Below are positions 20,473 to 28,208 of a stretch of DNA of 32,000 nucleotides, piece after piece. Numbering within the stretch: the first letter of the stretch is position 1; each line of letters opens with the position of its first letter. Source of the DNA: Candidatus Hadarchaeales archaeon (GTDB lineage Archaea > Hadarchaeota > Hadarchaeia > Hadarchaeales > Hadarchaeaceae); the NCBI GenBank assembly GCA_038823825.1, contig JAWBCC010000002.1:218630-250629 (forward strand), read 5' to 3'. The notes below the pieces were generated by a model that was given only the letters and a program-made list of their open reading frames with translations, did no database searches and had not been told where the DNA came from. A program made the position numbers and the translations under genes.

Positions 20473-20856
20473 TTATTCCTTCGCTCGCTCAGGTGGAGAA
20501 GTAAAGCTCAGGACACCCTGCTTAGGCTCGTAAATATTTCCGGCTTCTTTCTCACTCTTCAGAATTTCCTGAACTTCTTCTTTGCTCAGACCTACCTTTT
20601 CCGCTATTTCCAAGATTTCAGAAACTTCGACCATCCCGGTTGGATCTTTGCTTGCCAGAGCTCTCATAGCCCTCCTTATAAAGTCTACTTTTGCCTCATG
20701 TCCGCGTAGAATGAGAGGTATTTCCCTCTTCTTCGCAGGGGAGGCACTTTCCACAGAGACGTAAGTTCCCACATCTATCTCGAGCGTGAAGGTCTTTCCG
20801 CAAAGCGGACAGGTCACCTGAACTCTATGCCTCATACATTCACCCTTTGGAGCCAC
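20473..20856 (-). CDS. Hypothetical protein with a C-terminal winged-helix-like region
   Basis: 127 aa (120 aa if ATG 20835). It has only a single CPLC pair. The C-terminal VSEILEIAEKVGLSKEEVQEILKSEKEAGNIYEP looks HTH-like. No family recognised. Confidence 0.4.
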   Translation of the reverse strand: MAPKGECMRHRVQVTCPLCGKTFTLEIDVGTYVSVESASPAKKREIPLILRGHEAKVDFIRRAMRALASKDPTGMVEVSEILEIAEKVGLSKEEVQEILKSEKEAGNIYEPKQGVLSFTSPPERAKE

Positions 20857-20906: not shown

Positions 20907-21404
20907 GTGAGATTCGCTGTCGACGGCATGCTCGGAAAATTAGCCAGGTGGCTTCGAATAGCCGGGCACGACACGATTTATGCTAGAGATCTGAAGGTTG
21001 AGCCTGATAAGGAGGACGAAACCCTTCTCCAGTTGGTCGCAAGACAGAGGAGGGTTCTTCTTACAGCTGATAAAAACCTTTACACAAGAGCACTGGGTTT
21101 TGGTTTGAAAACAGTTCTCATAACGAAAAAAGACGTGGTTGATCAACTACTGGAGATATCAAAGGCGCTCGGTAGACGCGTGAAGTTGGATTTTGAAAAG
21201 TCTCGCTGCCCAGTTTGCAATGGCACCTTGATTCAGGTAGATCTATCGGAAGTCTCTGAGGATCTGAGGAAGAAGAACAAAGATTTTTGGAAATGCTTAT
21301 CTTGCGGAAAAGTCTACTGGGAAGGAAAACACTGGAGAAGTATAATAAAGACCGCTGAGAGGTATGAACGTGAGGTCGGAAAATCTCTCCCTAGAAGAAG
21401 GTAA
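20907..21404 (+). CDS. Mut7-C (DUF82) PIN-like RNase domain protein with a C-terminal zinc ribbon
   Basis: MRFAVDGMLGKLARWLRIAGHDT, LLTADKNL and CPVCNG...WKCLSCGKVYWEGKHW match the Mut7-C pattern. GTG start. Confidence 0.75.
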   Translation: MRFAVDGMLGKLARWLRIAGHDTIYARDLKVEPDKEDETLLQLVARQRRVLLTADKNLYTRALGFGLKTVLITKKDVVDQLLEISKALGRRVKLDFEKSRCPVCNGTLIQVDLSEVSEDLRKKNKDFWKCLSCGKVYWEGKHWRSIIKTAERYEREVGKSLPRRR

Positions 21405-21978
21405 AATTTTGGTAAAAACAGCAAGGACGGTGATAGAAGAATACGTCAAGTACGGTAGAATCCCTCCCAAGCCTCAAGTCCCGGAAAGTCTTAAGCAACC
21501 CCGGGGAGTTTTTGTGACTCTCGAGAAGAGGGGAGAACTCAGAGGATGCATAGGTTATCCTTTCCCTTCGATGCCTCTGATAGATGCTCTTGTGGACGCG
21601 GCAATCAGTTCTGCTACGAGAGACCCCCGTTTTGAACCGGTCGGTCCTGAGGAGCTCGATGAGATAGAGATAGAGGTGAGTGTGCTCTCAAAACCCGAGG
21701 AAATTCGCGTGAAACATCCTAGAGAATATCTCGAAAAGATAGAAATCGGACGTGATGGTCTCATAGTTCAATATGGTGGATACTCGGGTCTCTTGCTCCC
21801 TCAAGTTCCGGTCGAATGGGGATGGGATGTCGAAGAATTCCTCTGTCAGACGTGCATGAAAGCTGGCCTTCCTCCAGACTATTGGCTGAAGAAGGATGTC
21901 AAGATAATGAAGTTTACGGCTCAGATATTTCGCGAAAGGTCTCCGGGCGGGGAAGTCGAGGAGAGGAGACTCATCTAG
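21364..21978 (+). CDS. AMMECR1 domain protein
   Basis: 204 aa with GVFVTLEKRGELRGCIGYPFP and ATRDPRFEPV, which are AMMECR1 signatures. Overlaps the upstream gene by 41 nt. Confidence 0.85.
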   Translation: MNVRSENLSLEEGKILVKTARTVIEEYVKYGRIPPKPQVPESLKQPRGVFVTLEKRGELRGCIGYPFPSMPLIDALVDAAISSATRDPRFEPVGPEELDEIEIEVSVLSKPEEIRVKHPREYLEKIEIGRDGLIVQYGGYSGLLLPQVPVEWGWDVEEFLCQTCMKAGLPPDYWLKKDVKIMKFTAQIFRERSPGGEVEERRLI

Positions 21979-22519
21979 TCTCTTCTTTCTTCTCCTTTCC
22001 AAGCAAAAGAGAAAGAAGGGTTTTTTCATCAACTTCCGCTCTTGTCCTCCAGCCCAAGTAAAGAACCCCCTTTTCGTCCTCCTGTAGATATCCCATCCTT
22101 ATGAATCTGTCGATGGCGCTCTCTACTCTCCACTTTGGGAATTTCTCCTCCAGGATCTTCTCGATTTCCTTGCCTGCCACCTTTCCCCCCCTTGCGAGAA
22201 TTGTGGCGAGCGTCATCGTCAAAATTGCCATGTCATCTATTCTCCATCCAAACGTTCTCACCTCTGAGAACTCCGGGTGTCCTCTGAAAGTTACAACAAA
22301 CCTATCAGACTCAGAGTCTCCCTCTTTAACGACCTTCACGGTTAGCCCGAGCTTCTCGAGCTCAGCGTCCAAAGCTTTTATCACATCCTCATAGTTTCTT
22401 CCCAAGGCTCTCCTCAATTCCCATCTTCTCGCCCCAGGTTCTCTGTGATGCTTGAAGAGAAGAAGCTGTGCGGCTCTAGAGAGTTTCTGCCTGATTTCGA
22501 CTTCATCCTTTTCTGGCAT
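21971..22519 (-). CDS. Tandem winged-helix kite-type SMC accessory protein (ScpB / Nse3-MAGE-like)
   Basis: 182 aa in two WH-like halves (AAQLLLFKHHREPGARRWELRRAL...LGLTVKVV; MAILTMTLATILARGGKVAGKEIEKILEE...IRMGYLQEDEKGVLYLGWRTRAEV). GGAGGA SD upstream. 17-nt overlap with the kleisin gene. Confidence 0.55.
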   Translation of the reverse strand: MPEKDEVEIRQKLSRAAQLLLFKHHREPGARRWELRRALGRNYEDVIKALDAELEKLGLTVKVVKEGDSESDRFVVTFRGHPEFSEVRTFGWRIDDMAILTMTLATILARGGKVAGKEIEKILEEKFPKWRVESAIDRFIRMGYLQEDEKGVLYLGWRTRAEVDEKTLLSLLLGKEKKEETR

Positions 22520-23288
22520 GCTTCCTCCACTCCTCGTAAGTTATTGGTATGACGAGAGTTCTCGGCTCAGCTTCTTGAGCGGGTTTGCTTCTCGGTCTGA
22601 TTATTATATCTTCTTCAAGAGGCCTGACTTCGACATCAACGTAGCCATAAGAAATCAGAAAACTCATGATCCAGGAACGTCTCACGGTTTCCTCAAAAGT
22701 TTTTGCGCATACCCACTTCCAGTAAGAGATTCCCCTTTTCCCCACATTTTGCAACATTTTTTTCCACTCTTCTTCAAGGATTCTGCTGAATTCTTCTTCC
22801 GAGAGGATTCCCATCTCTCGCAGTTCTTCCTCTGTTATCCTACCGGTCTGAAGCTCCATTCCGCCGAGTTCAGCTCCTCTTTCGCTGAGGGGCGGCAGCT
22901 CCGTCCAATAATCTAGACCGGTTCGCAGCGCCGATGGGGAAATGGATTCCATCTCCAAGATTGGATGCCAGCATTTCGTGAAAATTTCCGCAAGTTCCGC
23001 AGGCTCCATCACTTGCATCTTGAGTGTTATGAGGAGAGGGTCCAAGTAAAGCACAGAAGACCTGTGTTTGAGCCACTCGCTTTGGTGAAGTATGACATCC
23101 GCGAGTCCGGAAACTGCCCGCATGTCCAGGTAAAGCTCTTCGAGCTTCTTCAACTCCGGGAAAAGTTCACGCAGTTTTTCGAGAAGCTCTTTGACCTGCA
23201 CGTCAAACGGATCCAGACCTCTTGATCTAACACTCTCGCATAGGTCGATTATCCTCTCGATTATTTCTCTTTTTTCCTTCACTTTCAT
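22503..23288 (-). CDS. Kleisin (ScpA / Nse4-like) SMC bridging subunit
   Basis: 261 aa. N-terminal helical segment RGLDPFDVQVKELLEKLRELF. C-terminal WH-like ETVRRSWIMSFLISYGYVDVEVRPLEEDIIIRP. ATGA overlap with the SMC-like gene stop. Confidence 0.55.
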   Translation of the reverse strand: MKVKEKREIIERIIDLCESVRSRGLDPFDVQVKELLEKLRELFPELKKLEELYLDMRAVSGLADVILHQSEWLKHRSSVLYLDPLLITLKMQVMEPAELAEIFTKCWHPILEMESISPSALRTGLDYWTELPPLSERGAELGGMELQTGRITEEELREMGILSEEEFSRILEEEWKKMLQNVGKRGISYWKWVCAKTFEETVRRSWIMSFLISYGYVDVEVRPLEEDIIIRPRSKPAQEAEPRTLVIPITYEEWRKHARKG

Positions 23289-25164
23289 CCGACTACCTCC
23301 ACTCTGGATACCCCGCCGATTTTCTGCACAGTTATGACGTTTTGGATTCCCTCGACGTTCGTTATCTGTCCTGGCGTGATCAAAACGTACTGCGCTTCTT
23401 CATCTCTAGTGACTTCAATGAGGCCACGGAGGAGCTCCTCCCTATTTTTGGGATCTAGATGGGCTTCGAACTCGTCTATTGCGCGGAATGGCGATTTTAT
23501 CTTTCTCTGGAGGGCGAGCAGGAAGCACATGATCGCAGAGGTTCTTTCACCCCCGCTGTGAACTTGTGCGTCCAGCAGCGTCGGTTCCATTCCCCTAAAC
23601 CCGACGGATATCTCAAGCCCAGCCCTCTCGATATCTTCTGGATTGGAAATGAAAAGATCTCCGGTTCCTCCGACCCTCTCCAAGAATCTTAAGTAATCTT
23701 TTCTGATTTCATCCAGAAGTCCTTCAATCTCTTTTTTCCACCTCTCTTTTCTCAGTTCTAACTCTTCCAAGGCTTTTCTTCTGTTTTCTTCAGCGATCGT
23801 TGCCTTCTCCTCAAGATCCTTCACTGTCTGCTGGTAGCTCATGAACATCTTTTCCACGTCGGGTGAGATGTCAGCATAAACGGCGAGCTGTGTGTTAACA
23901 GCTCTAAGCTCGTCAAAGACATCCTGGGGTTTTCGTCCGCTCTTTATTCTTTTTCCAACCTTTTCAGCCTCTGCGATGAGCTCCTCCAGCTCTCTCCTGG
24001 TTCTCCTGGCCGAGCTTTTCAACTCTGAGAGTTTTTCGGCTAGGATGCTCTTTTTTAGGTCGGAGACAGCCAACTTGATTTTAATCTGCGTCCCCTGATC
24101 CCTAGTTTCTCTGATTTTCCTCTTTATTTCAGCGATCTTTTCCTTCAGCCTCTCGATTTCTACCGCTTCCCTACCAATTTTGAGTTCCTTTTCGATTTTT
24201 CTAAGCTCAGTCTTATCAGAAATCAGCCTGCCGAGTTTTTCCAGAACCTCCAATCTACCTTCGGCTCTAGCCTGAATTCTTTCACACTCGATTAGCCTGT
24301 TGTAACTCGCCTCGAAATCGAGCTCAAGCTTCTCGAGCAATCTGTCACAGGCATCATCCTCCTTTACCAGTTTCTCCATCTCTCTCGAGATCTCTGCTAG
24401 CTCCGATTCCTTTTCAGAAATTTCCGTTTCGAGTGACTGTAAGGCTTCCTCTTGCTTTTCGACCTTCGCCCAGGCGTATTCGAGCTCCAGTTCCTTTTTC
24501 CTCCTTTCAAGCTCGATTTTTCTTTTGAATCTTTCATACTCCTTCTCCCAATAGCGCAGGGTTTCTCTGGCCTTCTCAAGCATCGCTGTGATCGACTGTT
24601 CTTCGCTCAGAACGTGTGAGAGTTTTTCTCTTGCCTCGATAATTCTTTCCCTGTATTCCCTGAGACCGACAGCTTCCTCGACCATTCGAAGTCTCTCGGT
24701 TGGGTCTACAGCACCGAAAACGTTTATCATGTTTTGATGCATTATGATGAGCATATTCTCTGGATTTATGGAAAGTCTTTCGAGGAGGCGGAGGACCTCC
24801 CCTTTGCTGACCATTCTGTTGTTTATCTCGTGCCAGTAGTTTCCATCCCTGCTCAGGTAACGGGATAAAACCACCGTATCGGCAGGTATGCTCGGAATCG
24901 GCCGTTTCCCATCTTGTGGGCTATTGTTGAAAACTATGCTCACCCGTCCGAGTTTCTCACCTCTCCTTATCAAGTCTCCAAGTCTTCTTGACCGTTCCGT
25001 GTATGTCTGCCCCAGCGCAACAGATATTCCTAAGAGAATGGAGGACTTGCCGGCTCCGTTTGGCCCGCAGATGAGGTTGAGCCCCGGCTTCAGCGGGACC
25101 CTTGTGTACACGTGGCTCATGAAGTTCTCCAGGATGACTTCTTTTATTATCGAATTTTCTGCCA
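23285..25164 (-). CDS. Short, hinge-less SMC-like ATPase with an Smc5/6-flavoured head
   Basis: 626 aa from ATG 25164 (630 aa from GTG 25177). LENFMSH, Walker A GPNGAGKSS, IIMHQNMINVFGAVDP, about 350 aa of coiled coil, then HSGGERTSAIMCFLLALQRKIKSPFRAIDEFEAHLDPKNRE...QYVLITPGQI. Confidence 0.75.
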
Positions 25165-25196
25165 TAGAGTTCCCCACTCTTAGACTCTACGCCAAC

Positions 25197-25202
25197 TTTA
25201 AA
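25197..25202. promoter_or_regulatory. Palindromic TTTAAA element shared by divergent genes
   Basis: Centred about 36 nt from ATG 25164 (minus) and about 37 nt from ATG 25237 (plus). Confidence 0.35.
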
Positions 25203-25236
25203 GAGCAAGCGACGCAAAAAATCTTAAGGTGCAAAG

Positions 25237-25956
25237 ATGGTCTTGGTAGCCAAGATATTTGACGTGATAGGGAGAGGAGATCTTTCAACCTTTGCCCAGA
25301 AGTTGAAGAATTTCAGTGAGGAAATGCCATATCAAGGAAGCAAGGGTGAGCACGTTTTGACGACCGAAATCGTTGATCTGAAGCTTGAAGGTGATGCTCT
25401 TTCAGGTATTTTCAGTAAAGATTTTGTTCTCACGAGATATTACAAGCGCGGACTCGTTGAGACGCCGGTCACGGAGGAAGTTCCGTTCTGGTTCAAGAAA
25501 TATAAAGGGAGGACGTTCTTAACCGTCTTGGCTCCCTCGAAAGCCCGAGGGGTCAAGAAACTCCTAACAAACTATGTGGCGAACAAGCTCAGCGAAATTC
25601 TCTTCATAAGAGCGGGCGGAGTAGTGGAGGCAAGAATTCCACATGAGACTCTGAGAAAACTTCACGAATCGAATCCTCAGGCAACGAAGTTGATATGGTT
25701 TGACAATGTCGACTATCCTGGGGTCGGAAAGTTAGCCTTGGCTGGTTCCGGTTTGGCGGACACAAAGCTGTATCGGGAATATCTTCAGCACGGAAAGATA
25801 TGGTATGTGGTTTTTGAAACAAAGGAGGGACTCGTCGTTGGGATCACCAGGAACTGTGTTGTCACGCTTTTCAGCCGCTCCGAGCTTAAGGATTTCATTT
25901 CTTATATCTTCAACGGGATTCTCCCTCTGATTTCCGGAAGAGAGGAAGCGGAATAG
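25237..25956 (+). CDS. Hypothetical protein (239 aa), divergent from the SMC-like operon
   Basis: Long ORF with an ATG start, no TM segment and no motif I recognise. Confidence 0.5.
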   Translation: MVLVAKIFDVIGRGDLSTFAQKLKNFSEEMPYQGSKGEHVLTTEIVDLKLEGDALSGIFSKDFVLTRYYKRGLVETPVTEEVPFWFKKYKGRTFLTVLAPSKARGVKKLLTNYVANKLSEILFIRAGGVVEARIPHETLRKLHESNPQATKLIWFDNVDYPGVGKLALAGSGLADTKLYREYLQHGKIWYVVFETKEGLVVGITRNCVVTLFSRSELKDFISYIFNGILPLISGREEAE

Positions 25957-26243: not shown

Positions 26244-28208
26244 TTAGAAGAATCTTCTCAGGAATACCACGATAGTGATGATTATGATTATCGCTGCGAG
26301 TACGGCAAGAGGCATAACAAGCTCTCTCGGCGGGAGCGAAACCGGTGGAGCGGAGTAGACAATTGTTAGGATTCTCTCCGTCACATTTCCTGCAGGATCA
26401 ACGATTCTGATGCGGAAGACGTTTGTTCCCGGAGAGAGCATGAGTGTCGTGTTGAAGGAGCCGGCGCTCACCGACACTGGGTTTCCGTTTATCGTCATTC
26501 TTGATCCGGGCTCGAGTCTTCCGCTCAGGGTAATGGTGTTCGTGGACGATTCTCCGAACCAGCCAGTTGCTGTCTCTGTCAGGGCAATTCCAGTGATGGT
26601 CAGCTCAAGTGTGGACGGCGTTGTGTCTATGATTATGCGGTAGATTGCGGTTTCACTTTCTCCTCCAGTATCAACAGCTCTCACTCTGAAGATGTATTCC
26701 CCGTCCGGTAGATCGGAGTAAGATGTAGAAGTTTCTGTCGTCGCTTTCCAGCTTTCGTCATAACCGTCAAGGCGATAGTAGTACATCACTGGGCTTGGTC
26801 CGCCTACAGATGTCCATGAGAATGATGGAGAGTTTCGGGAAGTTGGAGTATCTGCTGTAATGTTGCTTGATATTTCGGGCTTCTGCGGAGGATAGAGGTC
26901 TAGCTTCGCCTGAACGGTTGAGTGTGCGGCAGGGTTGGCGTTCCCGACCCCATCCTCCAGCCATAGATATATTGTTCTTACACCCTCTCCTGGCACGGAC
27001 AGGTTTGAAATAATACCCGTTGCCGGTGCGCTCCCGTTGTAGTCTGATGGACTGGTCGGCGGGGAGTCGAATTTGTAGTATGCCATGACTACACCGGACG
27101 GATCAGGAGGATTAGTCCAAGTAAGTGTGAATGAGTTGATTTTTGTCCAGTTGTCTGGGGATATTTGGAGATTGATCGGCGCAGCTGGTGGAATCGTGTC
27201 TACTCTGAAGCTCCAGACAGATGACCATGGGCCATCGTTTCCTGCATTGTCTCTTGCCTTTACCCTCCAGTAGTATACACCGTCCGGAAGGACGGAAGTT
27301 GTGACACTGGAAGTACCTGTTGTTGACCAGACCGTAAGGGTTGTTGTGAATACGAGTGGGGCTGTGAACGTGTTCTCGTTGTCAACCTCTATCGTGTAGA
27401 CGACCGGTAGGGAGTTCTCAAAGACGTTGTTCCAGACGAGAGTGGGTGTGTTATCGTTCGTGTTCTCCCCATCGGGCGGCGAGACGAGAGATGGTGCAGC
27501 TGGTGGAATCGTGTCTACTCTGAAACTCCAGACAGACGACCATCCGCCCTCATTTCCTGCATTGTCTCTAGCTCTCACCCTCCAGTACCAGACTCCATCG
27601 GAAAGATTAGGTGTGGTCCAGTTGTTGTCAGTTATCCAGCCGGAGCTTGCGTTCTCGTACGGGAAGGTTGCATTGTCACTAACGGAGACATAATACCAAA
27701 CAGGTGGAGAGCCGTCAATCAAGCTCTGCCACTGCAGGATTGGTGTGTTATCGTTCGTGTTCTCCCCATTTATTGGGTAAATGAGGGTTGGGATTCCTAT
27801 GTACATATCGACGTCTATCGCATCAGGCTCGGTGTACGGATCCTGTTTTTCACCTCCCAAATTTATGGCATTCTCAACGATAACGTCTACGCCGGAGACC
27901 TCCTCATCAACATCGGCTATGGTGTAGTTTGCCTCGTAAGTCCTTGACGATGTCCACGCTCCAGAGTTGAATGTTAGTGTTCCGGATGCCACTATGTCCG
28001 GATCGAAAGCTATATCCGGATCAACGGAAGTATCCATATCCTCGTTGTATGTTATCGTTATCGTCAGAGTTCCTCCGTCGTCCGATTCTGTTATGAGGTT
28101 GTCGCTTATATTAACCGAAACAACCTGCGGTGCGGCCCGCGATGGACCGGCAAGTATTACCAAGGAAAGAAAGAAAAGAACAGTTGTGAAAAAAGCCATC
28201 TTCCTCAA
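26244..28208 (-). CDS. Cell-surface protein with signal peptide, FN3 / Y_Y_Y-type Ig-like repeats and a C-terminal TM anchor
   Basis: 654 aa. MRKMAFFTTVLFFLSLVILAGPSRA signal. Repeats end WYWRVRARDNAGNEGGWSSVWSFRVDTIPPAAP and YYWRVKARDNAGNDGPWSSVWSFRVDTIPPAAP. A further unit reads YYYRLDGYDESW...DGEYIFRVRAVD. C-terminal LAVLAAIIIIITIVVFLRRFF. Many N-x-S/T sequons. Confidence 0.75.
   Translation of the reverse strand: MRKMAFFTTVLFFLSLVILAGPSRAAPQVVSVNISDNLITESDDGGTLTITITYNEDMDTSVDPDIAFDPDIVASGTLTFNSGAWTSSRTYEANYTIADVDEEVSGVDVIVENAINLGGEKQDPYTEPDAIDVDMYIGIPTLIYPINGENTNDNTPILQWQSLIDGSPPVWYYVSVSDNATFPYENASSGWITDNNWTTPNLSDGVWYWRVRARDNAGNEGGWSSVWSFRVDTIPPAAPSLVSPPDGENTNDNTPTLVWNNVFENSLPVVYTIEVDNENTFTAPLVFTTTLTVWSTTGTSSVTTSVLPDGVYYWRVKARDNAGNDGPWSSVWSFRVDTIPPAAPINLQISPDNWTKINSFTLTWTNPPDPSGVVMAYYKFDSPPTSPSDYNGSAPATGIISNLSVPGEGVRTIYLWLEDGVGNANPAAHSTVQAKLDLYPPQKPEISSNITADTPTSRNSPSFSWTSVGGPSPVMYYYRLDGYDESWKATTETSTSYSDLPDGEYIFRVRAVDTGGESETAIYRIIIDTTPSTLELTITGIALTETATGWFGESSTNTITLSGRLEPGSRMTINGNPVSVSAGSFNTTLMLSPGTNVFRIRIVDPAGNVTERILTIVYSAPPVSLPPRELVMPLAVLAAIIIIITIVVFLRRFF
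27181..27769 (-). repeat. Intragenic tandem duplication (domain repeat) inside the surface-protein gene
   Basis: 27181-27270 versus 27496-27585 is about 89% identical by hand count (offset 315 nt). 27445-27472 versus 27742-27769 is 28/28 identical (offset 297 nt). Confidence 0.8.

What the first reader, a model, noticed from the sequence alone, without database searches (positions are those of the whole stretch)
21971..25177. Miniature hinge-less Smc5/6-flavoured SMC plus kleisin plus tandem-WH (MAGE/Nse3- or ScpB-like) kite operon
Three minus-strand genes are translationally coupled (ATGA overlap at 23285-23288; 17-nt overlap at 22503-22519).

(i) A 626-630 aa ABC/SMC-type ATPase. Its head is split by about 350 aa of continuous coiled coil. 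There is no globular hinge and no CxxC zinc hook. That is about half the length I recall for a canonical archaeal SMC (well over 1000 aa).
- Head motifs: LENFMSH, GPNGAGKSS, and HSGGERTSAIMCFLLALQRKIKSPFRAIDEFEAHLDPKNRE...QYVLITPGQI.
- From my recollection of the families, SGGER(S/T)...ALQ...PFR..DE...(M/L)DP.N(E/R)...ITP is the Smc5/Smc6 style of signature/Walker-B region. It does not look like Smc1-4, bacterial SMC or Rad50.

(ii) A 261-aa protein with kleisin-like N-terminal helices and a C-terminal winged helix.

(iii) A 182-aa protein with two winged-helix halves. The spacing of its hydrophobic blocks resembles the MAGE homology domain (LLLFKHHREPGARRWEL / LGLTVKVV / ILTMTLATILARGGKVAGKEIEKILEE / YLQEDEKGVLYLGWRTRAEV).

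A complete but miniaturised SMC-kleisin-kite set of this flavour in an archaeon could be a minimal relative of the eukaryotic Smc5/6-Nse complex. It could also be a new DNA-surveillance module.
Basis: partly seen in the sequence, partly recalled or inferred. Interest (0 to 1): 0.85.

Follow-up and report, generated by a model that had tools for sequence, protein, structure and literature searches.

The report
Archaeal hinge-less Smc5/6-like SMC operon
Three overlapping genes on this Hadarchaeota chromosome encode a short-armed, hinge-less SMC ATPase, an Nse4-like kleisin and an Nse3/MAGE-like kite; this archaeal relative of the eukaryotic Smc5/6 genome-maintenance complex has already been published for a sister genome, but its miniature build and conserved neighbours have not been discussed.

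Summary
Three minus-strand genes of 630 (probably 626), 261 and 182 aa overlap by 4 and 17 nt.

- The ATPase is SMC-class. Outside its own family, its nearest relatives among 1.84 billion representative proteins are mostly eukaryotic Smc5 and Smc6, and it shares their SGGER / PFR..DEF / LDP.N / QY.LITP motifs.
- The 261-aa protein has an Nse4-type C-terminal domain.
- The 182-aa protein folds as two winged helices, closest to NSE3/MAGE-G1 and Nse1.
- The AlphaFold2 model of the ATPase shows about 140-residue antiparallel arms, a roughly 20-residue variable tip, no hinge and no CxxC.

It is not new as a kind. Yoshinaga & Inagaki (2021) named archaeal "SMC5/6-related SMC". Van Hooff et al. (bioRxiv 2024/25) list the orthologous triad of Hadesarchaea WYZ-LMO6 as an example cluster (55/53/63 % identity here).

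The texts I could read do not mention three things:
- 47 of 52 complete family representatives are 548-685 aa.
- Long Bathyarchaeia members carry a central CxxC.
- The neighbourhood is conserved: a 239-aa unknown protein, topoisomerase IB in TACK archaea, and an Lhr helicase.

The function is inferred, not shown.

The parts
23285..25177 (-). SMC5/6-related mini-SMC ATPase, 630 aa from the GTG at 25177. The more likely form is 626 aa from the ATG at 25165. N-head is about 1-170 with Walker A GPNGAGKS at 38-45. The antiparallel coiled-coil arm is 173-315 out and 337-501 back, with conserved breaks at 408-416 and 434-440 (joint-like). The tip is 316-336. The C-head is 504-629 with signature SGGER 541-545 and Walker B PFRAIDEFE. 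There is no hinge and no CxxC.
22503..23288 (-). Nse4-related kleisin, 261 aa. The start overlaps the SMC stop codon (ATGA). The C-terminal winged-helix domain is about 187-257. The conserved N-terminal region 1-110 is presumed to bind the SMC neck; this is not verified.
21971..22519 (-). Nse1/Nse3 (MAGE)-type kite, 182 aa, overlapping the kleisin gene by 17 nt. It has two winged-helix domains at about 3-78 and 94-155 plus C-terminal helices.
25178..25236 (.). 59-bp divergent intergenic region between the SMC gene and the 239-aa gene. It holds a palindromic TATA-like TTTAAA at 25197-25202 and GGTG at 25228-25231, upstream of the 239-aa gene's ATG. It is probably a shared bidirectional promoter; this is inferred from sequence only.
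   Evidence: direct reading of the sequence
25237..25956 (+). Conserved divergent neighbour, a 239-aa protein with no detectable family. Whether it belongs to the system is uncertain.

Best explanation
This is the Hadarchaeota copy of the archaeal 'SMC5/6-related' SMC complex. One operon of three translationally coupled genes encodes an SMC-class ABC ATPase, an Nse4-type kleisin and an Nse1/Nse3(MAGE)-type kite.

Proposed mechanism, inferred from what is established for Smc-ScpAB, MukBEF and Smc5/6:
- Two copies of the single SMC protein engage their heads around two ATP molecules.
- One kleisin bridges them, with its C-terminal winged helix on one head cap and its N-terminal helices on the other subunit's neck.
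- A kite homodimer sits on the middle of the kleisin.
- Together, kite, kleisin and the top of the engaged heads clamp double-stranded DNA, as in the DNA-bound Smc5/6 structures.

What is unusual is the arm. Each arm is only about 140 residues (about 20 nm), ends in a short variable loop, and has neither a hinge nor a zinc hook. The complex may therefore not close a ring at the far end. It may act as an ATP-gated DNA clamp or sensor and not as a long-range loop extruder.

Basis of each step:
- Shown here: gene structure, family assignment of all three proteins, the predicted hinge-less architecture, conservation of the operon across Hadarchaeota and TACK archaea, and orthology to the published example.
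- Inferred: stoichiometry, contacts between the subunits, DNA clamping, and a role in chromosome maintenance or repair.
For: Orthology to a published example:
- Locus L007 is contig QNVD01000244.1 of Hadesarchaea WYZ-LMO6. Van Hooff et al. list its genes _4/_5/_6 as SMC5/6-related SMC, Nse4-related kleisin and Nse1,3-related kite.
- The three ORFs of L007 are 55, 53 and 63 % identical to the window proteins, in the same order.

SMC subunit:
- PDB sequence hits are to Smc, Smc5 and Smc6, with Rad50 far weaker.
- The C-head is most similar to yeast Smc5. Shared residues are SGGER, ALQ, PFR..DE, (M/L)D..N and QY.LITP.
- Of the 44 best long proteins outside the family, 35 are Smc5/Smc6-type by motif. 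Named examples are insect and Dictyostelium SMC5.
- The best fold match is the Pyrococcus Smc head + coiled coil + joint construct 5xei.

Kleisin: Nse4_C in 26/27 members. The only PDB profile hits are to EID3/NSE4B and Nse4.

Kite: a tandem winged-helix model. Top Foldseek hits are NSE3/MAGE-G1, Nse3 and Nse1. Pfam MAGE hits 18/25 members and SMC_Nse1 hits 5/25, with no ScpB hit.

Operon conservation: the triad is colinear and adjacent in 60 of 61 loci that hold all three genes.

Context:
- The window is core chromosome, with A-type ATPase, an aminoacyl-tRNA synthetase and a polyamine synthase. A phosphate-binding protein and a PhoU-like ORF are also read directly from the translations.
- There are no viral or plasmid copies.

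Architecture: the hinge-less model, the variable tip, and 47 of 52 complete family representatives at 548-685 aa.
Against: - I built no head-domain phylogeny. Placement next to Smc5/6 rests on published trees for orthologues, on ranking in searches and on motifs.
- Whole-protein and structural scores to Pyrococcus Smc are as good as or better than those to Smc5.
- Pfam hits of the window's own kleisin (22.9 bits vs cut-off 26) and kite (17.1 vs 25) are below the gathering thresholds.
- The kleisin N-terminal domain gave no detectable match to any kleisin.
- No multimer prediction or experiment supports assembly, stoichiometry or DNA clamping.
- The monomer model cannot say whether the coiled-coil tips dimerise.
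- I did not check whether this particular genome also has a canonical Smc-ScpAB.
Confidence: 0.82

Rival explanations
1. An anti-plasmid or anti-virus defence module of the Lamassu/Wadjet type. A short-armed SMC-like sensor with a kleisin-like partner would detect foreign DNA and trigger a response.
For: - PADLOC models for LmuB (E 4e-23, nearly full length) and the MADS component mad3 (1.8e-27) hit the ATPase.
- Lamassu LmuB is, from general knowledge, also about 600 aa and hinge-less.
- JetB and MukE are among the kite's structural matches.
- Eukaryotic Smc5/6 itself restricts extrachromosomal DNA (abstracts listed).
Against: - The kleisin, the kite and the 239-aa neighbour give no PADLOC hit.
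- No effector such as an LmuA- or JetD-like nuclease lies next to the operon in the window or in 71 related loci.
- The operon sits among housekeeping genes.
- Its neighbourhood is conserved across two archaeal phylum-level groups, which is unlike defence islands.
- No relatives were found on viral contigs or plasmids.
- The LmuB and mad3 hits are of the generic SMC_N/AAA_15 kind.
Confidence: 0.07
2. The organism's ordinary condensin (Smc-ScpA-ScpB), merely diverged and shortened, with no special relation to Smc5/6.
For: - The best single PDB sequence hit and the best fold hit are Pyrococcus Smc.
- NCBIfam SMC_prok_A is the top NCBIfam model, E 8e-56.
Against: - The SMC_prok_A score is 189 bits against a cut-off of 729.
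- There is no SMC_hinge.
- The kleisin family hits Nse4_C and never ScpA. The kite family hits MAGE and Nse1 and never ScpB. ScpB structures rank far below Nse3/Nse1.
- The sister genome WYZ-LMO6 carries a separate condensin/cohesin-related SMC-kleisin-ScpB operon on another contig. All six Hadarchaeota rows whose counts I could read in that table have a ScpB-like kite.
Confidence: 0.05
3. A member of the archaea-specific SMC-related proteins (ASRP: coalescin ClsN / Sph) or of the Rad50/arcadin-4 group, acting without true kleisin or kite partners.
For: - Its length is similar to ASRPs.
- There are weak NCBIfam hits to ASRP (1.9e-14), Rad50_Sulf (8.9e-21, N-terminal only) and arcadin-4 (4.4e-6).
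- Long Bathyarchaeia relatives carry a central CxxC like a zinc hook.
Against: - The ASRP score is 53 bits against a cut-off of 300. Rad50 models match only residues about 10-86.
- The window protein has no CxxC. [quoted passage not shown] - No Mre11 gene is adjacent.
- The Nse4-like and Nse3-like genes are tightly coupled to the ATPase gene.
Confidence: 0.04

Closest known systems
Archaeal 'SMC5/6-related' SMC-kleisin-kite complex (Yoshinaga & Inagaki 2021, PMC8665677; van Hooff, Raas, Tromer & Eme, bioRxiv 10.1101/2024.01.07.573240)
   Same: The three gene families are the same, in the same order SMC -> Nse4-related kleisin -> Nse1/3-like kite. The triad is directly orthologous (55/53/63 % identity) to the published Hadesarchaea WYZ-LMO6 example cluster.
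   Different: Nothing differs in kind; this is another member. The papers treat the proteins phylogenetically. In the texts and supplements I could search, they do not mention the about 600-aa hinge-less architecture, the CxxC-bearing long variants, or the neighbouring topoisomerase IB, Lhr and 239-aa genes.
Eukaryotic Smc5/6-Nse1-Nse3-Nse4 core
   Same: - The ATPase head motifs SGGER, PFR..DE(F), (M/L)D..N and QY.LITP are shared.
- The kleisin has an Nse4-type C-terminal domain.
- The kite has the MAGE/Nse3/Nse1-type tandem winged-helix fold.
   Different: - There is one SMC gene (presumed homodimer) where eukaryotes have an Smc5-Smc6 heterodimer.
- There is one kite (presumed homodimer) where eukaryotes have Nse1 and Nse3, and it has no RING domain.
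- The arms are about 140 residues rather than about 350-400, with no hinge.
- No Nse2, Nse5 or Nse6 genes lie in the locus.
Prokaryotic Smc-ScpAB (condensin)
   Same: Both are three-subunit SMC/kleisin/kite systems encoded in an operon. The head + neck + joint fold is most similar to Pyrococcus Smc 5xei.
   Different: The window system has no hinge, arms less than half as long, a kleisin that is not ScpA-type and a kite that is not ScpB-type. In a sister genome it coexists with a separate canonical operon.
Lamassu LmuB / Wadjet JetABC
   Same: Both are short or kite-containing SMC-like systems. LmuB profiles hit the ATPase, and JetB is a structural relative of the kite.
   Different: The window system has no effector nuclease and no island context. 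Its kleisin and kite are of the Nse4 and Nse3 types.

Membership tests
Archaeal SMC5/6-related SMC complex | The SMC subunit groups with Smc5/Smc6 and not with Smc1-4 or canonical SMC. | tested here: met
   It is orthologous (55 % identity, syntenic) to QNVD01000244.1_4, which is classified so in a published tree. Of the 44 best long proteins outside the family, 35 are Smc5/6-type by motif. The C-head's top PDB hit is Smc5. I built no tree of my own, and Pyrococcus Smc scores similarly in pairwise terms.
Archaeal SMC5/6-related SMC complex | An adjacent Nse4-related kleisin. | tested here: met
   Pfam Nse4_C hits 26/27 family members, best 3.5e-7. The window protein scores 1e-4, just under the gathering score. 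The PDB profile hits only EID3/NSE4B and Nse4. This applies to the C-terminal domain only.
Archaeal SMC5/6-related SMC complex | An adjacent Nse1/Nse3-like kite (tandem winged helix). | tested here: met
   The AlphaFold2 model has two winged-helix domains. Foldseek top hits are NSE3/MAGE-G1, Nse3 and Nse1 at 1.9e-6 to 3e-5. Pfam MAGE hits 18/25 members and SMC_Nse1 5/25.
Archaeal SMC5/6-related SMC complex | The three genes are co-localised in one operon. | tested here: met
   Overlaps are 4 nt and 17 nt. The genes are colinear and adjacent in 60/61 loci that hold all three.
Kleisin superfamily | An N-terminal helical domain that binds the SMC neck. | tested here: inconclusive
   The N-terminal 110 residues are highly conserved within the family. 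They give no significant match to Nse4, ScpA or Rad21 N-domains.
Eukaryotic Smc5/6 holocomplex | An Smc5-Smc6 heterodimer joined by hinge domains. | tested here: not met
   There is a single SMC gene in the operon. Pfam finds no hinge, and the model has none.
Eukaryotic Smc5/6 holocomplex | Nse1 RING, Nse2 SUMO ligase and the Nse5/6 loader. | tested here: not met
   No such genes lie in the window around the operon. The kite is 182 aa with no RING. The rest of the genome could not be examined.
Canonical Smc-ScpAB | A full-length SMC with hinge (TIGR02169 / PF06470), ScpA (PF02616) and ScpB (PF04079). | tested here: not met
   TIGR02169 scores 189 bits against a cut-off of 729. There is no SMC_hinge. 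No family member hits ScpA or ScpB.
ASRP (coalescin/Sph) | Reaches the NF045487 cut-off and has a zinc hook at the coiled-coil tip. | tested here: not met
   The score is 53 bits against 300. There is no CxxC.
Rad50/SbcC | A CxxC zinc hook and an Mre11/SbcD partner. | tested here: not met
   There is no CxxC. Rad50 models match only the N-terminal ~80 residues or score far below their cut-offs. PDB Rad50 hits are about 1e-7. No nuclease gene is adjacent.
Lamassu / Wadjet defence systems | An SMC-like ATPase together with a dedicated effector (LmuA or JetD) in a defence island. | tested here: not met
   LmuB profiles hit the ATPase, but no other component does. The flanks are housekeeping genes. 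There are no viral or plasmid copies.

The most novel reading that the evidence does not exclude
The TACK/Hadarchaeota branch of the Smc5/6 lineage may be a naturally minimal SMC machine. It keeps the head, neck, joint and about 70 residues of distal coiled coil, and has no hinge. It would work as an ATP-gated DNA clamp or sensor without closing a ring. In that reading it would act at stalled forks or on supercoiled DNA together with its conserved neighbours, Lhr helicase and (in TACK archaea) eukaryote-type topoisomerase IB. This would show that the Smc5/6-type kleisin-kite-head module functions on its own. The hinge and long arms of eukaryotic Smc5/6 would then be separable additions or losses.
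Probability: 0.3. Interest if true: 0.7.

Novelty: new member of a known kind. Interest (0 to 1): 0.42.

Why it matters
Smc5/6 is the least understood eukaryotic SMC complex, and its archaeal relatives are known only from phylogenomics. This locus confirms that a complete Smc5/6-type core (SMC, Nse4-like kleisin, Nse3-like kite) exists in Hadarchaeota.

Analysis of the family shows that its usual form is a protein of about 600 aa with 20-nm arms and no hinge. Such a small, thermophile-derived, three-protein complex would be a convenient object for structural and single-molecule work. It could address what the kleisin-kite-head module does by itself, and whether loop extrusion or topological entrapment needs a hinge.

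The recurrent neighbours, topoisomerase IB and Lhr helicase, hint at a link to DNA topology and fork repair that parallels proposed roles of eukaryotic Smc5/6. None of this is experimentally shown.

Tried and rejected
Searches that gave nothing useful:
- The kite family profile against PDB sequences gave only non-significant hits: a NurA-like nuclease winged-helix domain at 0.024 and Nse3 at 0.19. The fold comparison was needed.

The 239-aa neighbour:
- It has no hit in Pfam, NCBIfam, PADLOC or the PDB, even with an 11-sequence profile.
- I tested whether it is a dedicated fourth subunit by fetching 80 metagenome loci chosen by this protein. Only 15 of 63 with enough flank have the SMC gene next to it. 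In other loci its neighbours are unrelated housekeeping genes. I therefore do not count it as a subunit.

Rejected explanations:
- Defence-system reading: rejected on context and missing effectors.
- Rad50, ASRP and canonical condensin readings: rejected on curated cut-offs, motifs and partners.

Caveats on my own analyses:
- A strict regex tally of Smc5/6 motifs across the family (27/77) was too crude to use.
- ORF lengths are first-start ORFs and overestimate some proteins (for example 837 and 696 aa).

Not done:
- I did not build a head phylogeny.
- I did not check this genome for a canonical smc-scpAB.

Full report
**Observation**

The three minus-strand ORFs exist exactly as described: 23285-25177 (630 aa from a GTG), 22503-23288 (261 aa) and 21971-22519 (182 aa). 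They overlap by 4 nt (ATGA) and 17 nt. An ATG at 25165 preceded by GTGGGGA gives the 626-aa protein that NCBI annotates as 'AAA family ATPase [Candidatus Hadarchaeales archaeon]', which is 100 % identical.

The window is ordinary chromosome. It carries A-type ATP synthase subunits, an aminoacyl-tRNA synthetase, a radical-SAM enzyme, a polyamine synthase, AMMECR1 and a Mut7-C RNase. Phosphate-binding and PhoU-like ORFs can be read directly from the translations.

**The ATPase**

Pfam finds SMC_N spanning residues 11-604 and no hinge. NCBIfam ranks SMC_prok_A first, but at 189 bits against a cut-off of 729. ASRP scores 53 against 300. Rad50 models either match only the first ~80 residues or score far below their cut-offs.

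Against PDB sequences, the best hits are Pyrococcus Smc head (3.3e-31), yeast Smc5 (6e-28), human SMC5 (2e-22) and SMC6 (9e-22), then Smc3, Smc1 and Smc2. Rad50 is near 1e-7.

With the C-terminal head alone, yeast Smc5 is first. Pyrococcus Smc has SGGEK, PFY..DE.DAHLD and QFIVITL instead.

A filter-free phmmer scan of 1.84 billion representative proteins gave 114 hits below 1e-30. After the protein's own family, the next 44 long proteins are, by motif, 28 Smc5-type, 7 Smc6-type and 6 canonical SMC. Named examples are SMC5 of an insect and of Dictyostelium.

**Architecture**

The AlphaFold2 model was built from a 31-sequence alignment and has mean pLDDT 81. Its layout is:
- a bipartite head at 1-170 and 504-629;
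- one unbroken helix at 173-315;
- a low-confidence tip at 316-336;
- a return arm at 337-501, broken at 408-416 and 434-440.

The first break coincides with invariant G408, R415 and P417. The tip is the most variable, indel-rich part of the alignment. There is no CxxC. The best fold match is the Pyrococcus 'Smc head with coiled coil and joint' construct 5xei. The protein therefore looks like an SMC cut short a little beyond the joint. 'Hinge-less' and 'miniature' are confirmed at the level of prediction.

**Kleisin and kite**

The 261-aa protein hits Pfam Nse4_C at E 1e-4, just below the gathering score.
- Across 27 family members, 26 hit Nse4_C (best 3.5e-7). None hits ScpA or Rad21.
- The family profile finds only human EID3/NSE4B (6.9e-6) and yeast Nse4 (2.9e-4) in the PDB.
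- Its conserved N-terminal 110 residues could not be tied to any kleisin N-domain.

The 182-aa protein hits Pfam MAGE weakly, E 4.8e-3.
- 18 of 25 relatives hit MAGE, 5 hit SMC_Nse1 and none hits ScpB.
- Its model (pLDDT 78) is two winged-helix domains.
- Foldseek ranks MAGE-G1/NSE3 (1.9e-6), Nse3, Nse1 and MAGE-A4 first. JetB and MukE follow. ScpB scores only about 1e-2.

**Conservation**

A scan of one genome per GTDB species with the kite family returned 71 loci: 48 labelled Hadarchaeota and 23 from other lineages. The others are Methanomethylicota, Nitrososphaerota/Thaumarchaeota, Thermoproteota, Geothermarchaeales and Hecatellales.
- SMC, kleisin and kite are colinear and adjacent in 42/42 and 18/19 of the loci that hold all three.
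- The SMC ORFs are about 570-690 aa throughout.
- Among complete 50 %-identity representatives of the family, 47 of 52 are 548-685 aa.

**What is already known**

Yoshinaga & Inagaki (2021) found archaeal SMC homologues that branch with Smc5+Smc6 and named them 'SMC5/6-related'.

Van Hooff et al. (bioRxiv 2024, v2 2025) added Nse4-related kleisins and Nse1/3-like kites. They showed that the genes form operons and proposed two SMC complexes in the TACK/Asgard ancestor, with 'a few euryarchaeal species' also carrying both.

Their Supplementary Table 3 lists, as an example cluster, Hadesarchaea WYZ-LMO6 genes QNVD01000244.1_4/_5/_6, beside a separate condensin-type operon on contig 245. That contig is my locus L007. 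Its three ORFs are 55, 53 and 63 % identical to the window proteins. The finding is therefore a correct rediscovery of a published system.

**What the papers do not mention**

This is judged from the texts and supplements I could search.

1. The short hinge-less architecture is the norm in this clade.
2. Five long (928-1047 aa) relatives exist, those with source names being from Bathyarchaeia. Three carry a CxxC exactly at mid-length, like a zinc hook. An 835-aa Asgard relative (Freyarchaeum) has a Pfam SMC_hinge.
3. The neighbourhood is conserved.
   - A 239-aa protein with no detectable family lies divergently upstream in 24/27 Hadarchaeota and 10/11 other loci.
   - A eukaryote-type topoisomerase IB sits between it and the SMC gene in 9/11 TACK loci and in none of 27 Hadarchaeota loci.
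   - An Lhr-type helicase lies convergently downstream within 2.5 kb in 15/34 and 9/16 loci.
   - Neither topoisomerase IB nor Lhr is in this window.
   - The 239-aa protein is not exclusive to the system. In 80 metagenome loci selected by it, only 15 of 63 with enough flank have the SMC gene beside it. Elsewhere its neighbours are unrelated.

**Mechanism (inferred)**

By analogy with Smc-ScpAB, MukBEF and DNA-clamped Smc5/6, the expected assembly is as follows.
- Two SMC subunits engage their heads on ATP.
- One kleisin bridges a cap and a neck.
- A kite homodimer binds the kleisin and DNA.

Without a hinge or hook, closure of the far end is doubtful. An ATP-gated clamp or sensor is more plausible than a long-range loop extruder. 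The chromosomal context, the absence of effectors and the lack of viral or plasmid copies argue against a defence island.

**Verdict**

In kind, the system is already known, and this locus is a new member. Moderate interest remains because the minimal architecture and the topoisomerase IB / Lhr association are undescribed and testable.

Noticed in passing
window 25237-25956 (+): A 239-aa protein with no Pfam, NCBIfam, PADLOC or PDB match. It is divergently transcribed from the SMC gene across a 59-bp spacer. The arrangement is conserved in 24/27 Hadarchaeota and 10/11 TACK loci (44-50 % identity across phyla). Yet it lies next to the SMC gene in only 15/63 loci selected by the 239-aa protein itself.
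   Followed up: partly
L063:1696-3240 (-), and 8 other TACK loci (L047, L049, L054, L055, L059, L062, L064, L066): A eukaryote-type DNA topoisomerase IB (Topoisom_I_N + Topoisom_I + Topo_C_assoc) lies divergently upstream of the SMC5/6-like operon in Methanomethylicota and Nitrososphaerota loci. It appears co-transcribed with the 239-aa homologue. It is absent from Hadarchaeota loci and from this window.
   Followed up: partly
L063:6582-9482 (-), and about 24 loci within 2.5 kb of the kite gene: An Lhr-type helicase (DEAD, Helicase_C, WH_Lhr, DEAD_assoc; about 955-970 aa) lies convergently just downstream of the kite gene. It is present in about half of both the Hadarchaeota and the TACK loci with enough flank. 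It is not in this window.
   Followed up: partly
proteins P0351, P0353, P0362 (relatives of the window ATPase; P0351 and P0353 clusters named Bathyarchaeia): These long (1016-1047 aa) members of the same SMC family, 37-40 % identical, carry CDKC or CERC exactly at mid-length. This is a zinc-hook-like tip in an SMC5/6-related protein.
   Followed up: partly
protein P0414 (Candidatus Freyarchaeum deiterrae, Asgard): An 835-aa relative (30 % identity) with a Pfam SMC_hinge at residues 341-452 and intermediate head motifs (PFY..DEF, QYIVVTP). It suggests the hinge was lost within the TACK/Hadarchaeota branch.
   Followed up: no
window 25178-25236: A palindromic TTTAAA at 25197-25202 sits in the 59-bp spacer between the two divergent genes. 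It lies about 35 nt from each start codon and could serve as a shared bidirectional archaeal TATA box.
   Followed up: no
window 20473-20856 (-): A 127-aa protein with an N-terminal CxxC...zinc-ribbon-like segment and a C-terminal winged helix resembling the archaeal MCM winged-helix domain (Pfam MCM_WH_arc, E 4e-5, below cut-off).
   Followed up: no
window 21971-21978: The kite gene and the convergent AMMECR1 gene (21364-21978, +) overlap by 8 nt at their 3' ends, leaving no room for a terminator between them.
   Followed up: no
window 26244-28208 (-): A 654-aa secreted or anchored protein with repeated Ig-like modules (Big_13, Y_Y_Y). It contains two near-identical internal segments (…WSSVWSFRVDTIPPAAP…).
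   Followed up: no
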